Positions 24,794-41,080 of a stretch of DNA of 64,000 nt are shown piece by piece. The notes below the pieces were generated by a model. The model ran no database searches, was not told where the DNA came from, and saw only the letters and a list, made by a program, of their open reading frames with translations. The translations under genes and the position numbers were made by a program. The stretch lies in sequence record PQ850631.1; one strand, written 5' to 3'. This stretch comes from Escherichia phage VerenaGrendelmeier_Bas101. How positions within the stretch are numbered: the first letter of the stretch is position 1; each line of letters opens with the position of its first letter.

Positions 24794-25771
24794 TTAAAAA
24801 TACTCCATATCGGTAATATCACGGAAGCATTTATACAAAGCAGAGCGCGGCACATCGACAATGCCAAAGTTAAAGAATTTATATGTAAGATACTTGTTGC
24901 GATAATTCTCGCGATTCTCCCAAAGCATTTTTCTCTCTGCCATAGGCATTGAACCAGCGGAGACGCGGAAAGGAATCATTTCGCCTTTCTCATCAACATA
25001 TTTTGGATTGACGACTACGAATGAGCCAAGGTATCCTTTTGCGACTAATCCTTCAGCCTCTTTTGAACGCTTAGTGCGACCCAACTCATCAATGAATGCT
25101 TCGTTGTTGTTCTCCATCATCTCAACGAAGTCTATGATCAGTCCTTCTTCATCGGTCCACGGCTTGTCCTTCCACACATCACGTGACTTTGGCGTCGCGC
25201 GGCCATGCTTGTATTTACCCGTCCAAGACTTGCCATACAAGCCTTCATAGCCAAGCTGGTCTGCTTCGATTTGCATTGCCGCGTACTGCTCCATATTTTC
25301 GATGTTGCGATATTCGAGAGCGCGAAGGAATGGGCGTCGACCATGGTTGATGAGGTGCTGATTGACTTCAGCAACTCTAGCGCGATAGTTTGCATAACGC
25401 TTTTCAAAAGGCAAATCAGGGTCGCTGAAATCATCAAACACCCACCATGTAAAGTTAGTGATTGCATCAGTATTCATGCATGCAGTATAGGCCTGTTGCA
25501 TGACGTTCTTATCATTTGGATTGCCGTCGATTAGCTCTCCATCAAGTCCGTGAATTAATTCACCCAAGAAGAGGAACTCTTTTTTGATTTGAATGTTTCG
25601 CAGTGCCATGCCGGACGTGCCCATTGGCAAGTTGTCATACGCCATTGCGCGTATGCCATCGACCTTGAATGACAATCCGCAAGGCAGCGGCACGTCTTCG
25701 CCGCGCTCGATTATTTGCTTACGCTGGCAACCCTTCATTGGTTTTAATGCTTTGATTTCTCCTGCCATCAC
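24794..25771 (-). CDS. ATP-dependent DNA ligase
   Basis: Nucleotidyltransferase motif I KVDGIRA; also GELIDG and EGLVAKG. Confidence 0.65.
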   Translation of the reverse strand: MMAGEIKALKPMKGCQRKQIIERGEDVPLPCGLSFKVDGIRAMAYDNLPMGTSGMALRNIQIKKEFLFLGELIHGLDGELIDGNPNDKNVMQQAYTACMNTDAITNFTWWVFDDFSDPDLPFEKRYANYRARVAEVNQHLINHGRRPFLRALEYRNIENMEQYAAMQIEADQLGYEGLYGKSWTGKYKHGRATPKSRDVWKDKPWTDEEGLIIDFVEMMENNNEAFIDELGRTKRSKEAEGLVAKGYLGSFVVVNPKYVDEKGEMIPFRVSAGSMPMAERKMLWENRENYRNKYLTYKFFNFGIVDVPRSALYKCFRDITDMEYF

Positions 25772-26361
25772 TCAAACTCCTTATTCATCACTTGTTCCAG
25801 CGCATAGGCGTAAGCCTGATCAGTCGATTTGATGAATGTGCCGTTGTACATGACACCTTTTCGGTCTTTAATGTCTTCGTAGGCCGCTTGCGCACAGTCG
25901 GATAAGCGAAGGCCATAATCATGAGCTACGCCGGAAAGGTAATCGGATGCGGCCATGATGGTCACGTCAATATCCATGGTCTGATTCTTAGCGATTGCAT
26001 CACCAAGTCGTCCAAGGGTCTTTGCCAGGCGAAGGATAAATGAATGAGGGTGAGCACCTTTATCAGCGCAACCGCCGCCATTAATGTTTTCGATTTCAGT
26101 ACCGTTTTGCGCTGCCAGGATGGTCAACACAACAAGGCAATCGCCGATGTCGTCCTTAATTGCTGCCTGCAAGTCACAGATGGCTTGCTCTGTATATCCA
26201 ATTTCAGGGTCGAAGAACACAAGGTCATGGAGTTGATCAACGTGGTCGGTTAACTCCCCGAACTCGCTGATAAGCTTCGGGTATTGGTCCTTAAGGTCGC
26301 AACCTTGGATGATGTTACGGTCAGAAGCCCACTGGCGAATGTTTGCATAAATCTGTTTCAT
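25768..26361 (-). CDS. MazG-like nucleotide pyrophosphohydrolase
   Basis: IRQWASDRNI, LISEFGELTDHV and IGDCLVVLTILAAQNG match the MazG-type EExxE helical pattern. Confidence 0.5.
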   Translation of the reverse strand: MKQIYANIRQWASDRNIIQGCDLKDQYPKLISEFGELTDHVDQLHDLVFFDPEIGYTEQAICDLQAAIKDDIGDCLVVLTILAAQNGTEIENINGGGCADKGAHPHSFILRLAKTLGRLGDAIAKNQTMDIDVTIMAASDYLSGVAHDYGLRLSDCAQAAYEDIKDRKGVMYNGTFIKSTDQAYAYALEQVMNKEFE

Positions 26362-30271: not shown

Positions 30272-30690
30272 GACAATTCCTCTAAATACTTGATGATGTG
30301 ATGAATAGTTCCCTTCACGATTATCTCACGTTGAACGTCTGCAATATTATAACGCTTTAATTCAATAGAAGGGTGGACTAAATAAAACATCTTCTCAGAA
30401 TCAACCTTAAGCAGAACAAATGATGGGTATTTCCAATCATTCCACGAAGAAAGAAAGCTGCATTGGCCTTTCTCAAATGCATTTCTGAAAGGTGCAGTGG
30501 TGGCCCTTGCAGGCCACGATTCAAAGAACTTCATTTCAAGCCAAAAGCCGCGCCCTTTCCGGTTTGTGCCGATTACGTCCGGCACGCCATCACCAGTCAT
30601 CGACTCGATTCTTTGAAGCTTCAATACCGATTCTGAATGCTTCTTCAAAGGCACGAATATGTATTTCTGCTCACGGTTATTTGTTGCCAT
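30268..30690 (-). CDS. VRR-NUC domain nuclease
   Basis: GVPDVIG...GFWLEMKF matches the PD-(D/E)xK VRR-NUC pattern. Confidence 0.6.
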   Translation of the reverse strand: MATNNREQKYIFVPLKKHSESVLKLQRIESMTGDGVPDVIGTNRKGRGFWLEMKFFESWPARATTAPFRNAFEKGQCSFLSSWNDWKYPSFVLLKVDSEKMFYLVHPSIELKRYNIADVQREIIVKGTIHHIIKYLEELS

Positions 30691-33574
30691 CTGGATACAC
30701 CTGTTTGATCACATCAACGATGAACATGTCAATGCCTTCAAGCTTACGACCTTTCATCAGGAAGAATGCGCCGTTCCCGACGTTTTCAGCAATGTACTTC
30801 CCGTACTTCTGGAACTTCTCTGGACGAATCCTGAAGCGCATTGGCGAGTCGGTCGAGTCGTCTTTGCACATAAGGTCGATGAACTGAGTCTCAAGCTTGT
30901 TCCCGTACTGGTCAAACTCTGCGTAGCGGCCATCAGCTTGAAGACCCTTTTTAAGCTTTCCGTGCTTTGTATAAATGCCGCGCTCAAGACGTTTACGGAT
31001 GCGTGTTGCTTCGTTCTCGTCTGCAAGCACTTTCTTTGTCAACTTGCCGATTACTATTGCGCGCTCGTCATCACCGACTTCCTTCATCTGGCGTATTGAA
31101 GCACCGGAAGTAACGCCAATCAGATAGGGGTCATTATACGCCCAGCCGAACTTGGTGTGCATCTCTGTAAGGTCGCCGTATTTAACTTCAGCATTGGCCA
31201 ATGCACCCTTTTGCTTTTGCGTTAAGGTTCCGGCTTCACGTGCTTCGATATACTTCATCGCCTTCACCATTCCGTACCCTTTCGCGTTCATGATGCCGCC
31301 GATTAGCTTTCCGTTCGCGATGGTCCAGTTCATCGAAGAGTGATCAGGGTCGATTGGAACGTAATCCACGCCTTCCTTCGCAAGTTCACGTAATATCGCA
31401 ATCGTCTGGTCTTCGTCCTTAGCAGCGCGTAAGCAGGCAGCGGCAAATTCCAACGGGTAGTGTCGCTTAAGCCACAAGGTCCAGTAGGTCACGACCGCGT
31501 ATGACACGGAGTGTGACTTGTTAAAGCCCCATGACCCGAACGTAGCCATCGCTTGCCAAAGCTTTCTTGCATCCGCTTCCGGTACGCCGTTATTGATTGC
31601 GCCTGCAACAAAGTCCTCGCCAAGCTTGTTAAAGTATTCTTCACCCTTACGGCCTGACATCGCCTTACGTACAGCGGACGTTTTCGCCCAGTCAAATGAA
31701 CCAATCTCTTTAACAACGGCCATGATTTGCTCTTGGTAAAGAAACACGCCGTAAGTCTCTTTTAAGTATGGCTCAAGCTGCGGCACGTCGTATTCAATCG
31801 GCGCACGCCCTGCCGCGCGTTCAATGTATTTCTGGGCCATACCGGATGACAACGGGCCAGGTCGACCCAAAGCTGTCAGGTTGTCGATTTTGTTAAAGTT
31901 ATCGACGTGAACAAAGTTTGTTACTGAACGTACAGCATCACCTTCAAACTGGAAGATGCCTGACATCTTGTTTTCGTTAAGAATGTCAAGGACGCTTTGA
32001 TCATCAAGCTTGATTCCGTAGAGCGTTTCAGCATCAATAACGCCTGTATCAGAAATAATGCCGAGAGTACGAAGGCCCAACGCATCAAGCTTCAAAAGGT
32101 TAAGGTATTCGCTGTCAGGCTTATCGATTTGCGCAATCCCTTCTGCAGTTACAGTACAGTAATCAGAGATTGGGTCATTACACACAATGATTCCCGCTGC
32201 GTGAACACCTGTGTGAGACGGGTGAATCTCAAGGTCACCCATGCAACGCGCGGCGTCAGGATATTTCGCCACGAACTCTTGACCCGTGGTCGTTGTTGCA
32301 AAGGTATCCTCCAGGCCGTGACCATAACGGGCGTCACCGGATGAGTATTCAAGCAGTGCGTTTTTAATGTTGGCCGTTTCGTGGTATCCAATGTTGAACT
32401 TCTTACCAACCTGCGCCATTACTGAGTTGGCCTTAAGCGTGTTGATGTTGCCAAGCTTTGCAACGTTCATTTCGCCGTATTTCTCTTTAAGATAATCAAA
32501 CACCATATAGCGTTTGGTATCTTCAAAGTCGATGTCGATGTCAGGAAGGTCGGCGCGGCTTACGTCGATGAATCGGGCAAACAGTAGCTTATACGGGATT
32601 GGGTCCACTTCCGTGATGCCGAGGCAATAGCAAACAAGTGAACCAGCCGATGAGCCGCGCGCAGGACCGACGAGCATTTTTGTTTTTGCGAATCGCACAA
32701 GGTCCGCTACCACCAGAAAGTATGAGTCGAAATCTTTCAGCTGAATCTGGTGAATCTCTTCGTTGAAGCGGTCCTCATATTCCTGAGTCCATTCTTTGAT
32801 GTGACCTGCTTTTAGACGGTACTCCATCCCCTCACGAGCAAGCTTTACCATGTCACCAGCAAGGTGAATAATCGGTGCCTTACGCAATTTCAAGTCAAGT
32901 CCGACTATGCCGTTTGCTATGTCAACAGCATTGGCCGTTGCCTGATCAAGTTCATCTTCAGTCAAGATGCCTTTAAGCTGTTTGCGCAAGTCTTCCGCGT
33001 CAACGATGCAATGCGGCTTGACCGTGTCGCGCACTTCCCAAGCATAAGCAAAGTCAACGTGCTCAGGTGAAGGCATGTGGTTGTATCCGGTTAAAACCAG
33101 CGGCCTTCCACCGCTACGATGAGCCAATGCCTGGCGCTTTGCCAAAAGGAACGATGATGGGTTGACGTCTATATAGTCGTAGTCCTCTGGCCGCAGCAAC
33201 TCCACGGCACCGCCACAGAATTTAACGACGCCATCGAGCGCACCGAACTCTGCACGGGTAAGCCCACCGCGCTGCGTTGAAAGTGTTGTAGCATTGTAAA
33301 AAGATTTTAAGTCAAGGGCCAATATCCAAGCCTTCGGTTTGAATCCCTTTTTAGGGTCCGCATCAGGGTCGATGATTGGAATCTCCATCCCAAACATAGG
33401 CTTAATATCATTTTTCTGGCATTCCTTTTCCCAGCGAACGTGACCCCATGTGTTGTTATCAACTAATGCCGCGACTTCGCAGCCCAACTCTTTGAGCCGT
33501 GCTATAATTTCAGGATGCCGTCCATAAACTTCTTTGAACGTGTAACCGCTGCGAACTCTCAATTGTGGAAACAT
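30677..33574 (-). CDS. dnaE: DNA polymerase III alpha subunit-like (DnaE family)
   Basis: 965 aa; PHP-like N-terminus; catalytic block GPARGSSAGSLVCYCLGITEVDP...DLPDIDIDFE parallels E. coli DnaE. Confidence 0.8.
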   Translation of the reverse strand: MFPQLRVRSGYTFKEVYGRHPEIIARLKELGCEVAALVDNNTWGHVRWEKECQKNDIKPMFGMEIPIIDPDADPKKGFKPKAWILALDLKSFYNATTLSTQRGGLTRAEFGALDGVVKFCGGAVELLRPEDYDYIDVNPSSFLLAKRQALAHRSGGRPLVLTGYNHMPSPEHVDFAYAWEVRDTVKPHCIVDAEDLRKQLKGILTEDELDQATANAVDIANGIVGLDLKLRKAPIIHLAGDMVKLAREGMEYRLKAGHIKEWTQEYEDRFNEEIHQIQLKDFDSYFLVVADLVRFAKTKMLVGPARGSSAGSLVCYCLGITEVDPIPYKLLFARFIDVSRADLPDIDIDFEDTKRYMVFDYLKEKYGEMNVAKLGNINTLKANSVMAQVGKKFNIGYHETANIKNALLEYSSGDARYGHGLEDTFATTTTGQEFVAKYPDAARCMGDLEIHPSHTGVHAAGIIVCNDPISDYCTVTAEGIAQIDKPDSEYLNLLKLDALGLRTLGIISDTGVIDAETLYGIKLDDQSVLDILNENKMSGIFQFEGDAVRSVTNFVHVDNFNKIDNLTALGRPGPLSSGMAQKYIERAAGRAPIEYDVPQLEPYLKETYGVFLYQEQIMAVVKEIGSFDWAKTSAVRKAMSGRKGEEYFNKLGEDFVAGAINNGVPEADARKLWQAMATFGSWGFNKSHSVSYAVVTYWTLWLKRHYPLEFAAACLRAAKDEDQTIAILRELAKEGVDYVPIDPDHSSMNWTIANGKLIGGIMNAKGYGMVKAMKYIEAREAGTLTQKQKGALANAEVKYGDLTEMHTKFGWAYNDPYLIGVTSGASIRQMKEVGDDERAIVIGKLTKKVLADENEATRIRKRLERGIYTKHGKLKKGLQADGRYAEFDQYGNKLETQFIDLMCKDDSTDSPMRFRIRPEKFQKYGKYIAENVGNGAFFLMKGRKLEGIDMFIVDVIKQVYPDGNK

Positions 33575-34116
33575 TATTTACTCCAGATGTCATATACGCC
33601 AATTTGTTGGCAGACTTTGTGCAGTAATATTACGTCGTCTAATGCACGGTGTTTCTGTTCATATTTTCCGAAATATAATTCATACAGCTCTTGAAGCTTA
33701 ACTCTTCGGCCAAAAATAGGCAAGGTTTGCTCAACTGTACAAATGTTTATTTCTGGAAAATTAACATCATCAAGCGTAAGTCCTTCGCGCTGTAGTGCAT
33801 AATCAAGAATGTTTTTATCGAACGCATGGTTGTGCGCGATAGTGGCATCCGTCTTCTTGAAGATTTCTTTTAGCTGCGGGACAAAATTGATGAATGGTGG
33901 ATTGCACTCAAGGTCTTCATTTGTTAATCCGGTAATCTTTGTGATAATTTCTTCAATCACGATTTCAGGATTAATTATGAATTCAAACGTTTCAAGAATC
34001 TCTTTGCCGTCTGTCAACAGACCTGCAAATTCAATAGGGCGCGGCTGCATCCCAAGCGGCGCTTTCGGGTGCACGGTCAATCCGGTTGTTTCGAAGTCAT
34101 AAGGGAGAAATAACAC
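33574..34116 (-). CDS. dnaQ: DnaQ-like 3'-5' proofreading exonuclease
   Basis: Exo motifs DFETTGL, AHNHAFD, HRALDD. Confidence 0.75.
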   Translation of the reverse strand: MLFLPYDFETTGLTVHPKAPLGMQPRPIEFAGLLTDGKEILETFEFIINPEIVIEEIITKITGLTNEDLECNPPFINFVPQLKEIFKKTDATIAHNHAFDKNILDYALQREGLTLDDVNFPEINICTVEQTLPIFGRRVKLQELYELYFGKYEQKHRALDDVILLHKVCQQIGVYDIWSK

Positions 34117-34139
34117 ATTAGCCTCCTACAAAAAGGCCG

Positions 34140-34159
34140 CCCATTAGGACGGCCACATA
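34140..34159 (-). terminator. rho-independent terminator (minus strand)
   Basis: 8-bp stem with one GU wobble; minus-strand transcript followed by UUUUUG, then AGGAGG RBS of the exonuclease gene. Confidence 0.55.
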
Positions 34160-34170
34160 TTCACGATTTG

Positions 34171-34722
34171 TTATACAGTGTACGGAGTACCGTCTTGATT
34201 CAACCGCACGATGAACTTAAGGTCAACACCAATGATTTCACGCGTATCAAAGATCACATAGTTGTAACGACGCTGACCAGCAATGTTTGGGTTGGTGTGA
34301 GAGTCGGTCACAACTTCCTGTGCAACCTGAATGCCTTCTTCGCTAAAGAACTTACGCCATTCAGCAAGTTCAGCGGCAGTCACGTGCATGCCAAGGTGGC
34401 TGACCTGATTGTCATGCGCATCGATATATTCGATGTTTTCGTTAATCCAGTTGCAGCCCATTGTGTAGTCAAGGATTTCAAGCTCAAGAGGCTTACCAGC
34501 GCCGCCATCAGTACCGTTGCCAGCCTGATAGTTGAAGCGCAAGTCAGCTTCATTGGTACAATCGTCGCGACGACCTTTAAAGTCATCAGCTTCAAATACG
34601 CGACCAGTAGCAACAACATGATCATGGAACCATTCTGTCAGGCCGATTTTAGCCAAGAAATCCTGTGCGCGCTGAGCATCTGGAATTGACAGGGCGATTT
34701 GTTCAATTTTAAAATGTGGCAT
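34171..34722 (-). CDS. VOC (glyoxalase/bleomycin-resistance)-like protein
   Basis: 183 aa; N-terminal HFKIEQIALSIPDAQRAQDFLAKIGL resembles VOC beta-alpha-beta modules. Confidence 0.3.
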   Translation of the reverse strand: MPHFKIEQIALSIPDAQRAQDFLAKIGLTEWFHDHVVATGRVFEADDFKGRRDDCTNEADLRFNYQAGNGTDGGAGKPLELEILDYTMGCNWINENIEYIDAHDNQVSHLGMHVTAAELAEWRKFFSEEGIQVAQEVVTDSHTNPNIAGQRRYNYVIFDTREIIGVDLKFIVRLNQDGTPYTV

Positions 34723-34818
34723 TTTGTTTCCTTAATTAAATATTATTGATTAATTACTGTGTTGTCTTCGTCCTGTTTCTTTTCAGGAGCGGGTGTGACA
34801 ACTTCAAATGTTCGTGAT

Positions 34819-35502
34819 TTATTTACCGAATGGAATATCAGTACCAGACATAAAGCGCCATGCGCCCGTAATTAAGATATGGCGAATGAAGTCAGCAATT
34901 ACTTGCGGCTCAGTCTCCAATCCGTTCATCAATGCCTTTTTCTGGTATTCAGCAGCATACTCAGGAGTCCAGCCGCGAGTCGCGCAAACAGCATCTTCAA
35001 TCTGTTTGGACATGCCAGTACCACGTAGCTTGTTAGGACTAATAGAAAATACCGTGATCCCGTATTTAGGCGTAAGCTCGTGAGCCATCTGCTTGCTAAT
35101 CATAAGCGCAGCGGCCTTGGAAGCATTATAACACAAGCTGGACGTCATAGGAATATGCGCAGCGTTGGAAACGATATTGATCACAAAACCTTTGTTGTCG
35201 ATAAGACTTTTCAGCGCGGCTTGAGTCGTGTTGACGAAAGAGAAGGCGTTGGTGTGCATAACGCGATTGAACTCTTCGTAGTTAACATCTTCAAACCAGT
35301 TGTTGGAGTTGACGCCAGCACAGTTGATCAAGCCTTCTACATCATATGGGCTTAAAATTTCTTTCATCTGTTTCGCGTCGCGGACGTCATATCCGTATGC
35401 TGAATCGATTCCAAGCACGTTATGACCGTAAGCGCCAAGGGTGTCAAAAATAGATTTACCAAGACCGGAATTGGAACCTGTTACAACAATTACTTTTTTC
35501 AT
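34819..35502 (-). CDS. short-chain dehydrogenase/reductase (SDR)
   Basis: Cofactor motif VTGSNSGLGKS and catalytic YNASK. Confidence 0.7.
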   Translation of the reverse strand: MKKVIVVTGSNSGLGKSIFDTLGAYGHNVLGIDSAYGYDVRDAKQMKEILSPYDVEGLINCAGVNSNNWFEDVNYEEFNRVMHTNAFSFVNTTQAALKSLIDNKGFVINIVSNAAHIPMTSSLCYNASKAAALMISKQMAHELTPKYGITVFSISPNKLRGTGMSKQIEDAVCATRGWTPEYAAEYQKKALMNGLETEPQVIADFIRHILITGAWRFMSGTDIPFGK

Positions 35503-35567
35503 TTATTTATCCTTTTTGGACTTCATTTCGATGAGATAAATATAACTCATCGAAACGCACAAGTAAA

Positions 35568-36440
35568 CTATTTATTGAAATTAATATTGTGGGTGTTGAC
35601 GAGACGTTCACACATGGCGCTGTAAACACCATCATCGTGTATAGAGTCTTCGTGCTTCAGGCCGCTGATTGCAAAGCGTGTAAGCTTGACAATCTTAAGC
35701 TCGAACAGATGCCACATGTGGTAGTCTTCCGGCGTTTTCAACGTTACGCCATTAGGGAAAAGCACCTGCATAACCTGGCCTACCATCACAGCGTTATCGC
35801 CATAGACAGCGTTACGCTCACGGAAAGTCGCGGCCATCGCATCAAGAATATCGGCGGCGGTTGCCGGAGATTGTTTGATTTCCACTGCTTTAGTCTCTTC
35901 TTGCCCCGTTGCGCTTGGATCAACTGCTAATCGTTGCACTACTTCACCTGCCTTGCAAAGATTAAATGTAAAAGCGATTTTATTTTGAGCAACGGAATTA
36001 TAATCCATAGCTTCTTTACGCATCGCCGCGAGTACGTCTTGTCTGTCGTCAAACACATTAATGATTCGATAATCGCCGTGACGCAATGCGTAATATAGCC
36101 ATTCAGACTTCATAATAGTTGATGGACGTTTGTCGCCATAGTCTCTCATCTTGATTGTAAATTCATCAAAAGGGAAAACATTGTCCAGACGTTCAAAAGT
36201 CACTTGTCTGTATTTTTCTGGCCTTGCAGTCCAATATTCAACCGCCTCACCGCGAAGAGATGCCGACTCTACTGCTGATGCAATGTGAGGATAGAACTGA
36301 TCATAACCAATACCGCTGTAATAATCATCATAGTCTGACAACGGACCTGCCACCTTGATGCGGTCTAAGCGCCAACGGTCATCAAACAGCGTTCCGTCAA
36401 GGTCGAATACGTTTAAAATTTCGCTGTTTTTAATGCTCAT
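35568..36440 (-). CDS. HAD-family phosphatase fused to a C-terminal domain of unknown function
   Basis: Motif I FDLDGTLFDD, later NVFDDRQDV; ~140-aa C-terminal extension. Confidence 0.55.
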   Translation of the reverse strand: MSIKNSEILNVFDLDGTLFDDRWRLDRIKVAGPLSDYDDYYSGIGYDQFYPHIASAVESASLRGEAVEYWTARPEKYRQVTFERLDNVFPFDEFTIKMRDYGDKRPSTIMKSEWLYYALRHGDYRIINVFDDRQDVLAAMRKEAMDYNSVAQNKIAFTFNLCKAGEVVQRLAVDPSATGQEETKAVEIKQSPATAADILDAMAATFRERNAVYGDNAVMVGQVMQVLFPNGVTLKTPEDYHMWHLFELKIVKLTRFAISGLKHEDSIHDDGVYSAMCERLVNTHNINFNK

Positions 36441-37240
36441 CCTTTTGATACTCCATCTTTAGCAACTGGATTGTTGGTGATTGGCATCGCACTCCAAAAC
36501 TGGATGCGTAACTCTTCTTGCTGTGCCGTGGTATCCATCCAATCACGATACCAAGGGCAATGGGCTTTGCCATGACGAGGAAACGCGCATTTACCCATAC
36601 CGATGCATTGCGGCTGTAATAATGGATTTGCCCACGGGTGCACCTTGAGGACTTCCGCAACCATTGCTCGGAATACTTCTTGATACTCGCCTTGTGTGCG
36701 CGTGCACAAGCGGTTGGAAGCCATCTGTTGCAGCGTTCGCAAGTTGAACTTTGCCATGATATGCGTTTGCATATTAGAAGGCAACACGGCACGTGCATCT
36801 TGAATCTCTGCGCCAGCCGCGCGAAGCTCTTGATACAAAGCATCGATAGTCGCCATCGCATCATCCCACTTCTCTGCCAGTTCAGCGGCCTTCTCGTCAT
36901 GACGAGTCCATCCCTTTGGATCATCCTCTGGGTAAGTAAACTTAGCAGGGCGAATCGCATCAAATGCAGACGACTCCTGAGCGCGGCTGGTGCGTTCTTG
37001 ATATGCGCCTGTGCGTGTGCGCACCATCTGATGGGTCATATTCTTTGATACATCAGTGATGTCAAAGATATAGTCCACAAAGTCAAAAGGCGACTTGATT
37101 GTATCAAGCATGTAGCGCCAGTGCTCTTGCTTCTCTGATTCTGTCATCTCAGAGACTGGCTTACCAGTCATGCGCGTGTTCTTTGTTTCCAGCAAAAGGT
37201 CAAGTGCATCTTGGGTGTATCGAATTAATTCAACTTTCAT
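36437..37240 (-). CDS. thyX: ThyX-like flavin-dependent thymidylate synthase (variant RTR motif, C-terminal Cys/His extension)
   Basis: RTRTGAYQERTSR aligns with the ThyX RHR-X7-8-S motif; ARAVLPSNMQTHIMAKFNLRTLQQM aligns with the ThyX LP/N.R.L block; extra C-terminus QCIGMGKCAFPRHGKAHC. Confidence 0.55.
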   Translation of the reverse strand: MKVELIRYTQDALDLLLETKNTRMTGKPVSEMTESEKQEHWRYMLDTIKSPFDFVDYIFDITDVSKNMTHQMVRTRTGAYQERTSRAQESSAFDAIRPAKFTYPEDDPKGWTRHDEKAAELAEKWDDAMATIDALYQELRAAGAEIQDARAVLPSNMQTHIMAKFNLRTLQQMASNRLCTRTQGEYQEVFRAMVAEVLKVHPWANPLLQPQCIGMGKCAFPRHGKAHCPWYRDWMDTTAQQEELRIQFWSAMPITNNPVAKDGVSKG

Positions 37241-37253
37241 TTTAATTATCCTA

Positions 37254-37700
37254 TTAACGGTAATTCACTAGTTGCTGATCACCAGAGAAGGTGCAATGAT
37301 AAACGAATTGTGCGTTATAAAGCAACTGAAAACTTTTCTTTGGTTCATTATTAGAACTCATTGATGTAAAGATTTCTGCACCAGAACGGTTTTCACCAAT
37401 CAGGTTAATAAAGCCGCCAGTTGAACGAGGCTGAACGAAAGTGAAACGCTGCATCCACGGAGTCCGGTTGGCACCTTTTCCGGTGAATCCCTGAATCTGA
37501 ATATTCAGACCTTCTTGCTCGTTCACACCGATGTAAGTGGTAATTGTTGCGCCAGTCGTCGCTGCGGTCTTGCCGTCCATCGCTTCGCAATCGTAAACAG
37601 CGATTGAATCGGAAGTACGGACAGCGGCTTCAGTCGCTTCCATATACATGGTTCCGAGAATAGCAGTCGCGGCAAGCGCGATTCCAGTGATGCGTTTCAT
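37254..37700 (-). CDS. secreted protein with signal peptide, unknown function
   Basis: MKRITGIALAATAILGTMYMEATEAA signal-like N-terminus; two Cys. Confidence 0.5.
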   Translation of the reverse strand: MKRITGIALAATAILGTMYMEATEAAVRTSDSIAVYDCEAMDGKTAATTGATITTYIGVNEQEGLNIQIQGFTGKGANRTPWMQRFTFVQPRSTGGFINLIGENRSGAEIFTSMSSNNEPKKSFQLLYNAQFVYHCTFSGDQQLVNYR

Positions 37701-37720
37701 TTTCGTTTCCTCTATGAGTT

Positions 37721-37757
37721 CTGCTTCAATGATTAAAGTATACGCCCATTGAAGCAG
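37721..37757. promoter_or_regulatory. 11-bp-stem hairpin in intergenic region
   Basis: CTGCTTCAATG ... CATTGAAGCAG, 15-nt loop, directly upstream of the RBS of the 37254-37700 gene on the minus strand. Confidence 0.5.
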
Positions 37758-37765
37758 AAAGCAAA

Positions 37766-38761
37766 TTATTTATTAGCAATATAAGCAAATTTTTGATAGT
37801 TATTTGCTTTGATGAGTTTTTCAACTTCAGCAAGGTCATGAGCGACGTCATCAAGCAAAATGTTTCGCCAAGTAGCGAATCGACCGACACTGAATACGTT
37901 CAAATCCATAGTCAACTGGAGCAGTAAGGCGTGGCGCAAGTCTTTCGGAATGTCGACAATTTTGCCATACTTCTGGTCAACCTTTTCAACTTCTTCCAAA
38001 GAGATGTCATTCCATGAAAGACCAAAAGCGGTAAGAACTTCATCCACTTCTGCACGCAGCTTCATGTCGCGATAACGTGTAATGCCGCCAGCGGCTTCAA
38101 CTGCTGCCGCGCTGACGCTTACCAATGGAATTGTTTCAATGATCAGCGTGTCACCAGTGATTGATGCGCGGTAAGTCCTTACAGAATAGTCAGGGAAGTA
38201 AATTGTTTGATACAACTCACACTTGCGCTTAATCTTAAAACGATAAACGCGAATATTTGCCTTATCAAACGAGAAGTCGAGCTTTTGATCAATACCAGCA
38301 AGCTTCATCATGACTGGCAGCGGCGATGTGTTGATGATTGGCGTCTCGCTATAGCCGCAAAGCGTGTCGACCGGAGTATTAAAGAATATACGGTCACCCA
38401 GTTTATCGACAAGTTGATCATAAAAGTCATCCGGCGCTATGTAGCGCGTAGCAGTTTGAAGCTTCATGATTGAGCGGCTGCCAAACTGGTTGGTGACTTT
38501 CATAGAGTACATATTGGCAAGGTTGATTGGGCAATGGTCGTGATAGTAGTTACCGCGAAAATACACGGCCTTGTCAACTGTCACTGCCTTAAAAGGGATT
38601 CCGGTAATACGGCTTACTTCTTCGCCGCGAAAGCGTAGCAGCGCCTTGTGCTGTGGCGCTCGCTCCCCTGCTTCGTACACAATAGAGTTCGGGAAGTGAC
38701 ACGCGGTAATAAGTCCTGCCAAACCGCCGCCGATAATCATTACAGGTTGTTTCATGTTCAT
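37766..38761 (-). CDS. FAD/NAD(P)-binding flavoprotein, UDP-galactopyranose mutase-like
   Basis: Rossmann motif IIGGGLAGL then acidic residue; C-terminal VGRFATWRNILLDDVAHD resembles the Glf-type C-terminus. Confidence 0.4.
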   Translation of the reverse strand: MNMKQPVMIIGGGLAGLITACHFPNSIVYEAGERAPQHKALLRFRGEEVSRITGIPFKAVTVDKAVYFRGNYYHDHCPINLANMYSMKVTNQFGSRSIMKLQTATRYIAPDDFYDQLVDKLGDRIFFNTPVDTLCGYSETPIINTSPLPVMMKLAGIDQKLDFSFDKANIRVYRFKIKRKCELYQTIYFPDYSVRTYRASITGDTLIIETIPLVSVSAAAVEAAGGITRYRDMKLRAEVDEVLTAFGLSWNDISLEEVEKVDQKYGKIVDIPKDLRHALLLQLTMDLNVFSVGRFATWRNILLDDVAHDLAEVEKLIKANNYQKFAYIANK

Positions 38762-38840: not shown

Positions 38841-38868
38841 AAAAAAAGACCCACAACAAGTGTGGGTC
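38841..38868 (-). terminator. rho-independent terminator (minus strand)
   Basis: GACCCACA...TGTGGGTC stem; minus-strand transcript followed by seven U. Confidence 0.65.
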
Positions 38869-38896: not shown

Positions 38897-39742
38897 TTAT
38901 TCCGCTTGATCACCGTCTTCAGCATCGTCGTTGGATTCAACATCGACAAACTCGATGTGGCCCATCTCTTCCAGCTTGCTCAGGTAGGAGCGAACGGAAG
39001 CGCCAAACAGTTGATCTTTAACTTTCTCGCCCAGCTCATCGATAGACTGTGCCACGCCAACTTCGCCTTCTTTGATCGCAGCCAGAACGCGTCCACGGGT
39101 GGAATGCTCTTGCGGCTGGCTCAGGCCATTACCAGTGTAGATGAAGTGAGTAGCTTTTGCACGACGCTGACCGTTTGCCTTTTTAGCAGCCTTACGTTCT
39201 GCGATGGCTTTGCGACGTTCTTCAGCTTCTTTCTTACGCTGTTCTTTCTGCTGTTCTGCAGCTTCTTTCGCCGCAATCTTAGCAGCTTCACGCTCTGCCT
39301 TGCGTTTCGCTTTAGCTTCTTCTTTGGCCTTCTCTTTTTCGGCCTTCGCTGCAGCACGGGCTTGATCACGCTCTGCTTTCTTAGCAGCAGCTTGTTCAGC
39401 TTTCAGGCGCTTGGCTTCTTCTTTAGCCTTTGCCTTTTCGATTTCTTTCGCTGCTTTAGCGGCTTCACGCTCTGCTTTCTTAGCAGCGGCCTTTTCTGCA
39501 CGCTCTTTAGCTTTCTTGGCTGCTTCTTCAGCACGCTTCTGAGCCTTCTCATCAGCAGCCTGCTTGCGTTTCAGCGCAGCTTCTTCACGCTTGGCTTGTT
39601 TTTCCTGCTCACGCTTCTGGCGTTTTTCTTCGGCTTCTTTCTTTTTAGCCAGGCGTTTTTCTTCAGCCACGCGACGACGTTCTGCTGCAGCTGCTTGTTT
39701 TTCTTCTTTAGATAATACTTTGATTGCTTCGGCCATGTTCAC
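38897..39742 (-). CDS. Lys/Glu/Ala-rich protein (long predicted single alpha-helix) with small C-terminal globular domain
   Basis: About 200 aa of KEEKQAAAAERRRVAEEKRLAKKKEAEEKR-type low complexity, then an ~80-aa C-terminal domain. Confidence 0.5.
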   Translation of the reverse strand: MNMAEAIKVLSKEEKQAAAAERRRVAEEKRLAKKKEAEEKRQKREQEKQAKREEAALKRKQAADEKAQKRAEEAAKKAKERAEKAAAKKAEREAAKAAKEIEKAKAKEEAKRLKAEQAAAKKAERDQARAAAKAEKEKAKEEAKAKRKAEREAAKIAAKEAAEQQKEQRKKEAEERRKAIAERKAAKKANGQRRAKATHFIYTGNGLSQPQEHSTRGRVLAAIKEGEVGVAQSIDELGEKVKDQLFGASVRSYLSKLEEMGHIEFVDVESNDDAEDGDQAE

Positions 39743-39895
39743 AGTCCTTAAATAAATTAGTTTATTTTATATTCCCCGTTTGGGATAACTTAATTATGCC
39801 TTCAGTCGCCGCCAGTAGCAACTAAAAACTATGGCGGCGATGCCACTTTAATTAAACTGATTTTCAGTTTTATTTTTCGTAAATTTACGTCAACA

Positions 39896-41080
39896 TTAAC
39901 GCGCTTTCAAATCACGGTACACGGTCAGATTCTTCTTAGCACGGGTGATTGCGGTGTACATCATCTTGGAGTACGGAACGCCGCGCAAGATTTCTTCCAG
40001 CACGCACACATTATCCCACTCGCTGCCTTGCGATTTGTGCACCGTGATGACATAGCCATAGTCCATCCCGCCAACAGCGCGTTGCGCTTCTTTGCGCACT
40101 TCCTGATCAGTAGAGAAGGAAAGAGGATTAATCTTAACCTTTATATCTTTACCATCAGTCAATGAACGCAAGTTGACATACATTATTTCATTCGACTCAT
40201 CTTCATCCCTTTCAAAGTCCGGCACTGGCTCATAGCCAATAACAATCCCTTGCTCGCCATTACAGAATCCTGGCCCGTGTTGGTTGAAGGTGCAAATAAC
40301 CTTCTCGCCGATTCCTGGCATTGGTGTTATACGTCCGCTCACTTGCCGTAATAATGAATTCCATTTATCTTTGGTGCTATTATAGGAGCAAATAATTTGA
40401 TCATCTTCGCCCATGAATTTCTTCAATGCAGTAACGCGCGGCGATTCTGCCAATACTTTGACGTCATCGTATTCACGCGGAGGAAGGCGGTTGCCTTGGC
40501 GAACGAAGAAGGAAGCACGGATGATGTTGGACTCTTTCCCTTGCCGCATGATTTCTGTTAACAGTACGTCAACGGCTTCTTCGGTAAAGTAGGCGGCGGC
40601 TTTTACCGGAGGGACTTGTCCAATGTCGCCTAATGCCAGCACAGGGATGCGGTGATCAAGAAGGCGCTCTGTGTCCCACTCGCCAACCATTGAAGCTTCA
40701 TCAAGGACTACAAGATGCGGCTTTTCGTCCAGCTTTGACTTTCTCGAGAATATTGGCTCATTGTCGTCATTTACGCCGCGCACGTTATAGATGAACTGGT
40801 GAAGGGTCTTAGCGCCACGACAACCTTTTTGCTTTAATCTGCTTGCAGCCTTTCCGGTCGGCGCAATATAGATAGCGCCGTACTCACCGACACAACGGCG
40901 CACAATCTCGCGAGCAATAGAGGTTTTACCAGTCCCTGCATAGCCAGCGATGAAAAACACGCGCTTCGTCGTTTTACCGTCTTGCAATCGCTTGTACCAT
41001 GCAACGGCCTTTTCGATGGCGTCAATTTGTTGCGCGTTAAACTGAATCACTGGCTCATCATTAAATTCTGGAATGTTCAT
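39896..41080 (-). CDS. SF1 helicase, Dda/RecD-like
   Basis: Walker A GYAGTGKTS, Walker B VVLDEASMV, C-terminal VITVHKSQGSEWDNV and YTAITRAKKNL. Confidence 0.7.
   Translation of the reverse strand: MNIPEFNDEPVIQFNAQQIDAIEKAVAWYKRLQDGKTTKRVFFIAGYAGTGKTSIAREIVRRCVGEYGAIYIAPTGKAASRLKQKGCRGAKTLHQFIYNVRGVNDDNEPIFSRKSKLDEKPHLVVLDEASMVGEWDTERLLDHRIPVLALGDIGQVPPVKAAAYFTEEAVDVLLTEIMRQGKESNIIRASFFVRQGNRLPPREYDDVKVLAESPRVTALKKFMGEDDQIICSYNSTKDKWNSLLRQVSGRITPMPGIGEKVICTFNQHGPGFCNGEQGIVIGYEPVPDFERDEDESNEIMYVNLRSLTDGKDIKVKINPLSFSTDQEVRKEAQRAVGGMDYGYVITVHKSQGSEWDNVCVLEEILRGVPYSKMMYTAITRAKKNLTVYRDLKAR

What the first reader, a model, noticed from the sequence alone, without database searches (positions are those of the whole stretch)
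34171..38761. Auxiliary metabolic cluster inside the replication block: VOC-like, SDR, HAD phosphatase fusion, ThyX-like, secreted protein, Glf-like flavoprotein
Six consecutive leftward genes encode small-molecule enzymes rather than replisome parts: a VOC-like protein, a classical SDR (TGxxxGxG and YxxxK), a HAD phosphatase (DxDGT) fused to an unknown C-terminal domain, a ThyX-like enzyme, a signal-peptide protein and an FAD-binding protein resembling UDP-galactopyranose mutase. Two flavoenzymes with a reductase and a phosphatase beside the polymerase suggests more than plain dTMP synthesis, for example synthesis of a modified nucleotide or sugar-nucleotide used for DNA hypermodification or host-envelope modification.
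Basis: partly seen in the sequence, partly recalled or inferred. Interest (0 to 1): 0.7.

Follow-up and report, generated by a model that had tools for sequence, protein, structure and literature searches.

The report
Candidate phage thymidine-hypermodification enzyme cluster
Six neighbouring enzyme genes in this E. coli phage belong to a gene set conserved across very different phages, and they are the best available candidates for making the sugar-bearing thymine recently found in the DNA of related Pseudomonas therapy phages.

Summary
The window is a Wifcevirus (E. coli myovirus). Coordinates 34171-38761 hold six leftward genes between two terminator-like hairpins: a VOC-like protein, a short SDR, a HAD phosphatase fused to a conserved four-helix domain, a ThyX-like protein, a signal-peptide protein and an FAD protein of the UGM/PPO/amine-oxidase fold. 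GenBank (phage Mansfield) already names these genes.

What is new is the context. The FAD protein, the ThyX-like protein and the HAD phosphatase travel together in at least four phage lineages, and the SDR in three. These are Pbunavirus/Wifcevirus-like myoviruses, Ss1-like podoviruses, Rhizobium jumbo phages and actinophage clusters D/DV. The FAD family is essentially phage-only.

All 70 linked ThyX-like proteins keep the FAD- and dUMP-binding arginines. All 70 have lost the folate-stacking His53, His79 and the strictly conserved Tyr91. A 2025 preprint showed that Pbunavirus DNA carries sugar-derived hypermodified thymidine and named no biosynthetic genes. [quoted passage not shown]

Best reading (about 0.5): this is a thymidine C5 hypermodification pathway. 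It is unproven. No Wifcevirus DNA chemistry is available, and ordinary dTMP supply remains a serious rival.

The parts
38848..38868 (-). Terminator-like hairpin upstream of the cluster, between the TolA-like gene and the FAD-protein gene
   Evidence: 8-bp stem with 5 GC pairs, then TTTTTTT. The equivalent position is annotated as a terminator in phage Mansfield.
37766..38761 (-). FAD-binding protein of the UGM/PPO/amine-oxidase fold ('Glf-like', phrog_4828). It is the first gene of the unit.
   Evidence: The family has GxGxxG, an invariant HKALLRFR and a C-terminal GRFATWRN motif. It has no Pfam hit. It is phage-restricted. It is homologous to the actinophage 'oxidoreductase' family (hhalign 96%).
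37254..37700 (-). 148-aa protein with a signal-peptide-like N-terminus. It is a Wifcevirus-specific insert and probably not part of the conserved pathway.
   Evidence: Homologues were found in only 6 of 86 loci, all of them Wifcevirus. No family hit.
36437..37240 (-). ThyX-like flavoprotein with a non-canonical active-site signature (Ile for His53, RTR for RHR, Thr for Ser88, Ala for Tyr91)
   Evidence: Thy1 E 1.2e-30. TIGR02170 scores 83.1, below the 87.9 cut-off.
35907..36440 (-). HAD phosphatase domain (DxDGT; PNKP-phosphatase type) of the fusion protein. There is no kinase domain.
   Evidence: Invariant D13, D15, T71, K111 and D131-D132 correspond to HAD motifs I-IV.
35568..35870 (-). C-terminal four-helix-bundle domain of the fusion protein. 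It is DUF6378-like and reaches the highest identities of any cluster protein in the divergent loci.
   Evidence: AF2 pLDDT is 93. 15 of 19 family members hit DUF6378 weakly. It is a separate ORF in locus L084.
34819..35502 (-). Short classical SDR (FabG-like, phrog_3142)
   Evidence: It is 31% identical (E 1e-30) to the SDR of Gordonia phage Lila22. In the phage database it was found almost only in genera that also carry the ThyX-like gene.
34171..34722 (-). VOC-superfamily-like protein (glyoxalase/epimerase fold). It is the last gene of the unit and always accompanies the SDR in proteobacterial phages.
   Evidence: No hit among solved structures by sequence.
34135..34154 (-). Terminator-like hairpin downstream of the cluster, before the exonuclease gene
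   Evidence: 8-bp stem with 7 GC pairs, then TTTTT. Annotated as a terminator in Mansfield.

Best explanation
The cluster is one transcription unit. It encodes a conserved phage pathway that acts on the C5 position of deoxyuridylate/thymidine, and it is the leading candidate for making a sugar-derived hypermodified thymidine of the kind found in Pbunavirus virion DNA.

The core is two flavoenzymes plus a phosphatase:
- a ThyX-like protein that still binds FAD and a 5'-phosphorylated uracil nucleotide, but has lost the folate-stacking histidine and the catalytic tyrosine;
- a phage-only FAD protein of the UGM/PPO/amine-oxidase fold;
- a HAD phosphatase, fused to or next to a small helical domain.

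In Wifcevirus and many other lineages an SDR reductase is added. In the proteobacterial lineages that have the SDR, a VOC-fold protein comes with it. These would tailor the sugar, for example by reducing a carbonyl to an alcohol or by isomerising or epimerising it.

Inferred mechanism (not shown): flavin chemistry creates or captures an electrophilic exocyclic carbon at C5. A sugar or sugar phosphate becomes attached there, the HAD domain removes the phosphate, and the SDR and VOC proteins finish the side chain. The resulting DNA resists restriction enzymes.

What is shown: gene content, operon structure, co-occurrence, active-site substitutions and fold class. What is inferred: substrate, product, order of steps, and whether this phage's DNA is modified at all.
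For: 1. Discrete unit. Six co-oriented genes lie between two terminator-like hairpins (Mansfield annotation).

2. Conserved order. FAD protein > ThyX-like > HAD/helical domain > [SDR > VOC] > exonuclease > Pol III alpha is kept in 80 IMG/VR loci at 30-60% protein identity. Counts were FAD protein 85, ThyX-like 80, helical domain 72, SDR 54 and VOC 51 among the 85 of 86 held loci with any hit.

3. Independent lineages with the same set.
- 40-42 kb podoviruses Ss1 and VA-RY-3: FAD protein, ThyX-like and a HAD-DUF3310 fusion, adjacent to one another.
- Rhizobium jumbo phage: FAD protein, ThyX-like and a HAD/helical-domain protein within about 7 kb.
- Gordonia DV and Mycobacterium D actinophages: oxidoreductase, HAD, FabG-like SDR and ThyX-like. 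The oxidoreductase family is homologous to the window's FAD protein (hhalign 96%, E 4e-9). The SDRs are 31% identical.

4. Matching counts in the phage database. FAD-protein and ThyX-like hits are the same for Pseudomonas (292), Escherichia (26), Serratia (9) and Xanthomonas (6). SDR and ThyX-like hits are both 35 for Gordonia.

5. Phage restriction. The FAD family occurs in only 4 MAG contigs among 185,579 species genomes.

6. Active site. In 70 of 70 linked ThyX-like proteins His53 is Ile, His79 is T/S/N and Tyr91 is A/V/T/I. Q75, R78, R80 and R90 are invariant, and R147 and R174 are present in 69 of 70 with one alignment gap. His53 stacks on the folate pterin. Tyr91 is 'strictly conserved', and Y91A slows carbinolamine consumption by more than 100-fold (PMC11940539; PMC8316439).

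7. Relatives with modified DNA. Pbunavirus F8 and 14-1 carry the three core genes. About a quarter of their thymidines are replaced by 362-u and 390-u nucleosides, interpreted as tetrose-alcohol and cyclised-pentose derivatives, and no biosynthetic genes are named (PMC12191111).

8. Restriction resistance. [quoted passage not shown]

9. No competitors in the genome. No other small-molecule enzyme apart from a MazG-like protein is annotated in the Bas98 record or the Mansfield region viewed, or turned up in the seven further window ORFs scanned with Pfam.
Against: - No chemistry or restriction-digest data exist for Wifcevirus DNA in the literature I could search.
- F8 and 14-1 carry different adducts but nearly identical core genes (FAD protein 97%, ThyX-like 94%, HAD fusion 81%). 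The core alone therefore cannot set the adduct.
- The Pbunavirus modification is reported as TG-specific, which needs an enzyme that reads DNA. None of the six proteins has a recognised DNA-binding domain. The ThyX-like protein keeps the arginines that hold a mononucleotide 5'-phosphate.
- F8 DNA is cut by EcoRI, whereas Wifceviruses resist EcoRI in vivo. The two genera therefore cannot be simply equated.
- The non-canonical ThyX signature also occurs in actinophages with no known DNA modification.
- Much of the synteny could be inheritance of a DnaE-type replication module rather than selection for a pathway.
- A ThyX plus a nucleotidase or pyrophosphatase is also what an ordinary dTMP-supply module looks like.
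Confidence: 0.5

Rival explanations
1. Ordinary nucleotide-supply module for the phage's DnaE-type replisome. ThyX makes dTMP. The helical domain (DUF6378-like, possibly a MazG-like pyrophosphatase) and the HAD phosphatase adjust the dUTP, dUMP or dNMP pools. The FAD protein is a redox or one-carbon helper for ThyX, for example a flavin reductase or an oxidative demethylase that releases formaldehyde. The SDR and VOC proteins are accessory redox enzymes. The DNA stays canonical.
For: - Thy1 domain E 1.2e-30, with all FAD- and dUMP-binding arginines kept.
- The cluster always lies next to the polymerase and exonuclease genes.
- In the Rhizobium jumbo phage it sits among dUTPase and ribonucleotide reductase genes.
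- Actinophage versions sit next to MazG-like pyrophosphatases.
- ThyX can use free formaldehyde as a methylene donor (PMC8316439). An amine-oxidase-fold partner could supply that.
Against: - Loss of His53, His79 and Tyr91 in 70 of 70 sequences is hard to square with normal folate-dependent catalysis.
- The score is below the NCBIfam ThyX equivalog cut-off.
- This reading gives no role to a phage-only UGM/PPO-fold flavoprotein, an SDR or a VOC protein.
- It does not explain the hypermodified thymidine in Pbunavirus, for which no other enzyme candidates are annotated.
Confidence: 0.3
2. No pathway. The six genes are unrelated auxiliary genes ('morons') that happen to sit together in a permissive spot of the replication module.
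For: - The 148-aa signal-peptide gene is clearly such an insert, being Wifcevirus-only.
- Other Wifceviruses have extra small ORFs between the VOC and SDR genes.
- Pbunaviruses have five small ORFs between the FAD-protein and ThyX-like genes.
Against: - The four enzyme families recur together in myoviruses, podoviruses, jumbo phages and actinophages, in a changed gene order.
- Genus counts match in the phage database.
- The SDR and VOC genes are gained or lost as a pair.
Confidence: 0.08
3. Sugar-nucleotide synthesis for modifying the host envelope. The FAD protein is a true UDP-galactopyranose mutase making UDP-Galf, and the phage alters O-antigen or another surface glycan.
For: - Mansfield's annotators reported an HHpred match to E. 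coli Glf.
- BASEL Wifceviruses use the O16 O-antigen as receptor.
Against: - No Pfam GLF or NAD_binding_8 hit, even at E 10.
- No glycosyltransferase, flippase or acyltransferase is annotated in the records viewed or turned up in the extra Pfam scan.
- The family is absent from bacterial genomes.
- In every lineage the gene is tied to ThyX and the polymerase, including phages of hosts with unrelated surface glycans.
Confidence: 0.03

Closest known systems
Thymidine hypermodification clusters of phages M6, ViI, SP10, PhiW-14 and PaMx11 (Lee et al. 2018; 2021, PMC8989533)
   Same: - A phage gene cluster near the replication genes that decorates the C5 substituent of thymidine.
- It can include a flavin-dependent enzyme (PaMx11 gp47).
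- It gives partial replacement of T and protects DNA from nucleases.
   Different: - Those pathways start from a ThyA-type dUMP hydroxymethylase. They use a P-loop 5-hmdU DNA kinase and an aGPT-Pplase amino-acid:DNA transferase, and they attach amino acids or polyamines.
- None of those three families is annotated in the records viewed or turned up in the extra Pfam scan.
- Here the one-carbon enzyme is ThyX-type, and the adduct in the relatives is sugar-like.
Canonical flavin-dependent thymidylate synthase ThyX (T. maritima TM0449, PDB 1O26 family)
   Same: Same fold and family (Thy1 E 1.2e-30). The FAD- and dUMP-binding residues Q75, R78, R80, R90, R147 and R174 are conserved.
   Different: His53 (folate stacking), His79 and Tyr91 (general acid) are replaced in every member of the linked clade, and Ser88 is mostly Thr. 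The score falls just below the NCBIfam equivalog cut-off.
UDP-galactopyranose mutase / protoporphyrinogen oxidase / amine oxidase two-domain FAD superfamily
   Same: - N-terminal FAD Rossmann motif.
- A C-terminal GRxxxW/Y motif reminiscent of UGM (from my own reading of the sequence; not tested).
   Different: - Much smaller (about 320 aa against 365-510).
- 10-17% identity.
- No Pfam model matches.
- It cannot be assigned to any subfamily.
- Phage-restricted.
Glycosylated 5-hydroxycytosine / arabinosyl-hmC pathways of RB69, DLP3 and RL38J1 (PMC13326640)
   Same: Phage pathways that attach sugars to a pyrimidine made by a thymidylate-synthase homologue with altered, flavin-linked chemistry. 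One of them (RL38J1) uses a genuine UGM.
   Different: - Those use ThyA homologues acting on dCMP, dedicated glycosyltransferases and NDP-sugar enzymes.
- No glycosyltransferase is recognisable here.

Membership tests
ThyX (flavin-dependent thymidylate synthase; Pfam Thy1, TIGR02170) | Thy1 domain detectable by profile | tested here: met
   Pfam Thy1 E 1.2e-30, covering 191 of 191 model positions. phmmer hits T. maritima ThyX structures.
ThyX (flavin-dependent thymidylate synthase; Pfam Thy1, TIGR02170) | Score above the curated equivalog cut-off | tested here: not met
   TIGR02170 scores 83.1 bits against a cut-off of 87.9.
ThyX (flavin-dependent thymidylate synthase; Pfam Thy1, TIGR02170) | ThyX signature residues His53, RHR (78-80), Ser88 and Tyr91 (T. 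maritima numbering) | tested here: not met
   The window has Ile, R-T-R, Thr and Ala at these positions. In 70 of 70 linked homologues His53 is Ile, His79 is T/S/N and Tyr91 is A/V/T/I. The roles of these residues come from PMC8316439 and PMC11940539.
ThyX (flavin-dependent thymidylate synthase; Pfam Thy1, TIGR02170) | FAD- and dUMP-binding residues Q75, R78, R80, R90, R147 and R174 | tested here: met
   Invariant in 69-70 of 70 sequences.
ThyX (flavin-dependent thymidylate synthase; Pfam Thy1, TIGR02170) | CH2-THF/NADPH-dependent conversion of dUMP to dTMP | not testable with these tools
   Needs an enzyme assay or thyA complementation.
UDP-galactopyranose mutase (Glf) | Match to the Pfam GLF / NAD_binding_8 models, or to UGM sequences | tested here: not met
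   No Pfam or NCBIfam hit, even at E 10. Profile and single-sequence searches of PDB sequences find no UGM.
UDP-galactopyranose mutase (Glf) | UGM is the distinctly closest fold | tested here: inconclusive
UDP-galactopyranose mutase (Glf) | Genomic partner that uses UDP-Galf (a galactofuranosyltransferase) | tested here: not met
   No glycosyltransferase is annotated in Bas98 or in the Mansfield region viewed, and none turned up in the additional Pfam scan.
UDP-galactopyranose mutase (Glf) | UDP-Galp binding residues and mutase activity | not tested
   Model coordinates could not be inspected residue by residue. Activity needs an assay.
Classical short-chain dehydrogenase/reductase | TGxxxGxG cofactor motif, YxxxK catalytic motif and an adh_short profile match | tested here: met
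   VTGSNSGLG and YNASK are in the translation. adh_short E 2.6e-31. FabG structures match at E 1e-12. No NCBIfam model reaches its cut-off, so 'FabG' names a resemblance and not a function.
HAD phosphatase (DxDxT) / T4 Pnkp | HAD motifs I-IV | tested here: met
   D13, D15, T71, K111 and D131-D132 are invariant in 30 homologues. HAD_PNKP E 7.6e-10.
HAD phosphatase (DxDxT) / T4 Pnkp | 5'-kinase (P-loop) domain that makes a polynucleotide kinase-phosphatase | tested here: not met
   Only the phosphatase domain matches. The rest of the protein is the four-helix domain. The database name 'polynucleotide kinase/phosphorylase' is therefore misleading.
VOC (glyoxalase/bleomycin-resistance/dioxygenase) superfamily | Profile match to a VOC model | tested here: inconclusive
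   Glyoxalase_4 scores 17.8 bits against a cut-off of 27 for the window protein. 9 of 14 family members match, best E 9.3e-6. No PDB hit by sequence.
Known thymidine hypermodification system (5-HMUDK + aGPT-Pplase + ThyA-type hydroxymethylase) | Presence of the 5-hmdU DNA kinase, the aGPT-Pplase transferase and a ThyA homologue | tested here: not met
   None is annotated in the Bas98 record or the Mansfield region viewed. None was found in the Pfam scan of seven larger unassigned window ORFs. Small ORFs were not all scanned.

The most novel reading that the evidence does not exclude
The two flavoenzymes may carry out a folate-independent transfer of a sugar carbon skeleton to C5 of dUMP.

As in UGM and ThyX, the N5 of reduced flavin would form an iminium or carbinolamine. 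Here it would form with the aldehyde carbon of an aldose phosphate instead of with formaldehyde or CH2-THF. C5 of dUMP attacks that carbon. The resulting exocyclic alkylidene is then either reduced by FADH-, giving an open-chain polyol, or closed by a sugar hydroxyl, giving a C-glycoside. HAD then removes the sugar phosphate.

The arithmetic fits both Pbunavirus nucleosides:
- dU + pentose - H2O + 2H = 362;
- dU + hexose - H2O = 390.

The idea would also explain three observations: F8 has a 'sugar alcohol' without any reductase gene; the bulky Tyr91 and the folate-stacking His53 are replaced by small or aliphatic residues; and a UGM-like flavoprotein is always present. It would be a new kind of nucleobase-sugar C-C bond formation.

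O-linked isomers (5-hmdU + tetritol or pentose - H2O) have the same masses, so the mass data do not favour this idea over them.
Probability: 0.12. Interest if true: 0.9.

Novelty: new variant of a known kind. Interest (0 to 1): 0.68.

Why it matters
Pbunaviruses are among the phages most used for Pseudomonas therapy. Their DNA was only recently found to carry a sugar-derived thymidine, and no genes have been assigned to it. A named, testable set of three to five genes would let that pathway be dissected.

It would also show how these phages evade restriction enzymes yet become targets of modification-dependent END nucleases. It would allow the same chemistry to be predicted in Wifcevirus, in Serratia, Xanthomonas, Pantoea and Rhizobium phages, and in actinophage clusters D and DV.

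If the ThyX-like enzyme has really changed its carbon donor, that would add a new reaction type to flavin-dependent nucleotide chemistry. It could also give a new handle for making modified DNA.

Tried and rejected
- Single-sequence and profile searches of PDB sequences gave nothing usable for the FAD protein, the HAD fusion, the C-terminal domain or the VOC-like protein. The 'Pizza' repeat-protein hits for the C-terminal domain are spurious.
- I suspected that domain was MazG-like. hhalign against the phage's own MazG-like protein gave probability 1.7% and against the DUF3310 domain of Ss1 gave 0.15%. Only weak, sub-threshold DUF6378 hits remain, and no paper describes a function for DUF6378.
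- hhalign of the FAD family against an E. coli Glf sequence recalled from memory aligned only the Rossmann motif.
- I looked for VOC and helical-domain counterparts in actinophages by profile against single sequences. Nothing was found. This is inconclusive, because one side of each comparison was a single sequence.
- I compared F8 with 14-1 to find the gene that sets the adduct. There is no difference in gene content. The most diverged genes are gp70 (57%), the HAD fusion (81%) and the small ORFs gp58, gp60 and gp61. Of the non-core F8 genes tested, gp58, gp60-64 and gp68-71 have no Wifcevirus homologue; only gp66 does.
- Literature searches for Wifcevirus DNA modification or restriction digests found nothing.
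- The AlphaFold-database Foldseek library was unavailable.
- The large representative-protein search was not used.

Full report
**What the window is.** The region matches 28 Wifcevirus genomes (E. coli and Shigella myoviruses such as EC150, WFH, ECML-117 and BASEL Bas98-100) at 93-95% nucleotide identity over nearly its whole length.

**The genes.** They lie between the DnaQ-like exonuclease/Pol III alpha pair (30677-34116) and a TolA-like gene plus a Dda-like helicase gene (38897-41080).

Two strong minus-strand terminator-like hairpins bracket them, at 38868-38848 and 34154-34135. The same two positions are annotated as terminators in phage Mansfield. The six genes therefore look like one transcription unit.

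Mansfield's GenBank record already calls them glyoxylase-family protein, SDR, phosphatase, ThyX, hypothetical protein and UDP-galactopyranose mutase. The bare observation is therefore not new.

**The proteins one by one.**

- *SDR.* It is an ordinary short classical SDR (adh_short E 2.6e-31; TGxxxGxG and YxxxK present). It reaches no NCBIfam functional cut-off.
- *HAD domain.* It has all four HAD motifs and matches the phosphatase domain of T4 Pnkp. There is no kinase domain, so the database name 'polynucleotide kinase' is wrong.
- *C-terminal 100 residues of the HAD protein.* They reach the highest identities of any cluster protein in the divergent loci (up to 74% where the polymerase is 66%). 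They fold into a confident four-helix bundle (pLDDT 93) with no specific structural neighbour. 15 of 19 family members weakly hit Pfam DUF6378, a family with no described function. In one metagenomic phage the HAD part and this domain are separate ORFs. In the podovirus Ss1 the HAD part is fused to a different small helical domain, DUF3310.
- *VOC label.* It rests on sub-threshold Glyoxalase_4 hits, found in 9 of 14 family members.
- *148-aa protein.* It has a signal-peptide-like N-terminus and occurs only in Wifcevirus. I treat it as an insert.

**The ThyX-like protein is not canonical.** Aligned to T. maritima ThyX, the window protein has Ile for His53, R-T-R for R78-H79-R80, Thr for Ser88 and Ala for Tyr91.

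I extracted the ThyX-like gene from every locus that also carries the FAD protein, which gave 70 distinct sequences. In these:

- His53 is Ile in 70 of 70;
- His79 is T/S/N in 70 of 70;
- Tyr91 is A/V/T/I in 70 of 70;
- Q75, R78, R80 and R90 are invariant, and R147 and R174 are present in 69 of 70 with one alignment gap.

According to the literature, His53 stacks on the folate pterin and hydrogen-bonds Tyr91 (PMC11940539). [quoted passage not shown]

The protein therefore still looks like an FAD enzyme that binds a uracil 5'-mononucleotide, but the part of the site that handles the one-carbon donor is rebuilt. It also falls just below the NCBIfam ThyX cut-off (83.1 against 87.9 bits).

One caveat applies. 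ThyX-like proteins of actinophages share this deviation, so it marks a broad phage clade.

**Co-occurrence.** The FAD family has 1,912 hits at E <= 0.001 in the protein collection. The few that carry names are phage proteins, and many lie on contigs of about 60-73 kb.

In 80 IMG/VR loci the order FAD protein > ThyX-like > HAD/helical domain > [SDR > VOC] > exonuclease > Pol III alpha is kept at 30-60% identity. The SDR and VOC genes are present or absent together, and both are absent from Pbunavirus.

The same set appears outside this myovirus group:

- 40-42 kb podoviruses Ss1 and VA-RY-3;
- a 206-kb Rhizobium jumbo phage;
- Gordonia cluster DV and Mycobacterium cluster D phages, which encode an 'oxidoreductase', a HAD hydrolase, a FabG-like SDR and a ThyX-like protein around a DnaE-like polymerase.

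A profile-profile comparison shows that the actinophage oxidoreductase family is homologous to the window's FAD protein over its full length (probability 96%, E 4e-9). The SDRs are 31% identical (E 1e-30).

In the 50,697-genome phage collection the genus counts of hits coincide for the FAD protein, the ThyX-like protein and the SDR.

The FAD family is virtually absent from 185,579 bacterial and archaeal species genomes. It was found in only four MAG contigs.

These counts are inflated by many near-identical genomes. The independent evidence is the four or so lineages.

**Link to DNA hypermodification.** A 2025 preprint (PMC12191111) reports several findings on Pbunavirus F8 and 14-1:

- their virion DNA resists restriction enzymes whose sites contain TG;
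- it has a T:A ratio below one;
- it contains new nucleosides of 362 u and 390 u replacing about a quarter of the thymidines;

The paper names no biosynthetic genes. It stresses that such phages lack the known modification genes.

F8 and 14-1 carry the FAD protein, the ThyX-like protein and the HAD fusion. Among the genes of this block these are the only recognisable small-molecule enzymes shared with Wifcevirus.

[quoted passage not shown] The window has 15 EcoRI, 5 EcoRV and 82 EcoP1 sites, and 26.4% of its T's precede G.

No other paper in the searchable library connects these genes to the modification.

**Most likely mechanism, and its limits.** I read the cluster as a pathway that builds a sugar-bearing substituent on C5 of deoxyuridylate/thymidine. 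The two flavoenzymes would be the core, HAD would remove a sugar or nucleotide phosphate, and the SDR and VOC proteins would tailor the side chain in lineages that have them.

Two chemistries fit the published masses equally well:

- O-linked: 5-hmdU + tetritol - H2O = 362, and 5-hmdU + pentose - H2O = 390.
- C-linked: dU + pentose - H2O + 2H = 362, and dU + hexose - H2O = 390.

In the C-linked version the carbon on C5 comes from the sugar, through a flavin-N5 iminium of the kind used by both UGM and ThyX. This is my own arithmetic and inference, not a result.

The hypothesis has several weaknesses.

- TG specificity needs a DNA-reading enzyme, and none is recognisable.
- The ThyX-like protein keeps its mononucleotide-binding arginines.
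- F8 and 14-1 differ in adduct but hardly at all in the core genes.
- F8 DNA is cut by EcoRI, whereas Wifceviruses resist it.
- No Wifcevirus DNA chemistry exists.

**Rivals.** An ordinary dTMP and nucleotide-pool module remains a serious alternative (about 0.3). The host-envelope reading has essentially no support. The 'no pathway' reading is contradicted by the cross-lineage co-occurrence.

**Verdict.** It gains real weight from comparative genomics, from the active-site analysis and from the new Pbunavirus chemistry.

If the link holds, this is a new enzymatic route to thymidine hypermodification: ThyX-type plus a UGM/PPO-fold flavoprotein, instead of ThyA-type plus a kinase plus aGPT-Pplase. 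It is widespread, it includes therapy phages, and it can be tested directly by gene deletion followed by LC-MS.

Noticed in passing
window, whole 64 kb: HindIII sites (AAGCTT) occur 55 times against about 18 expected from base composition. XbaI sites (TCTAGA) occur 0 times against about 18 expected. EcoRV sites occur 5 times against 18 expected. The HindIII excess may reflect a repeated regulatory motif.
   Followed up: no
window 36533-36607 (ThyX-like residues ~212-236): The ThyX-like protein has a C-terminal extension with a conserved Cys/His pattern (CIGMGKCAFPRHGKAHCPWYRDWMD). The pattern is shared with Pbunavirus LMA2 but absent from the Ss1 and Rhizobium-phage homologues. It may be a metal-binding element.
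   Followed up: no
L096 (Gordonia phage Lila22) 7947-11954; L097 (Mycobacterium phage Helpful) 4804-7949: The actinophage versions of the module insert a methyltransferase gene and a 155-163 aa hypothetical gene between the HAD and SDR genes. There is no detectable VOC counterpart.
   Followed up: partly
L087 13894-15090 (F8 gp70) vs L088 13997-15301 (14-1 ORF70): gp70 lies next to the primase genes and is only 57% identical between F8 and 14-1, while neighbouring genes are 91-99% identical. It shows weak Cys-rich (DnaJ-type zinc-finger) hits and has no Wifcevirus homologue. It could be a specificity or anti-defence determinant.
   Followed up: partly
L084 7434-8027: One divergent metagenomic phage carries a borderline pyrimidine-dimer DNA-glycosylase-like gene (Pyr_excise, 23 bits, equal to the cut-off) about 2 kb upstream of its FAD-protein gene. 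A DUF932 gene lies directly upstream, as it also does in L064.
   Followed up: no
window 38897-39742: A 281-aa Lys/Glu/Ala-rich 'TolA-like' protein lies directly upstream of the cluster. It is conserved with Pbunavirus gp66 (51% identity over 110 aa). gp66 is annotated in LMA2 as a putative structural or cell-wall-associated protein.
   Followed up: no
window 25768-26361: A separate MazG-like pyrophosphatase gene lies 8 kb away, next to the ligase and spanin genes (weak Pfam MazG hit, E 0.021; annotated as MazG-like in Mansfield and Bas98). It could belong to the same nucleotide pathway. Actinophage versions place a MazG-like gene beside the polymerase.
   Followed up: partly
window 34168-34689 (+) and 36430-36963 (-): Long mechanical ORFs lie antisense to, or out of frame with, the VOC-like and ThyX-like genes (173 and 177 aa). 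They have no homology support and are most likely not genes.
   Followed up: no
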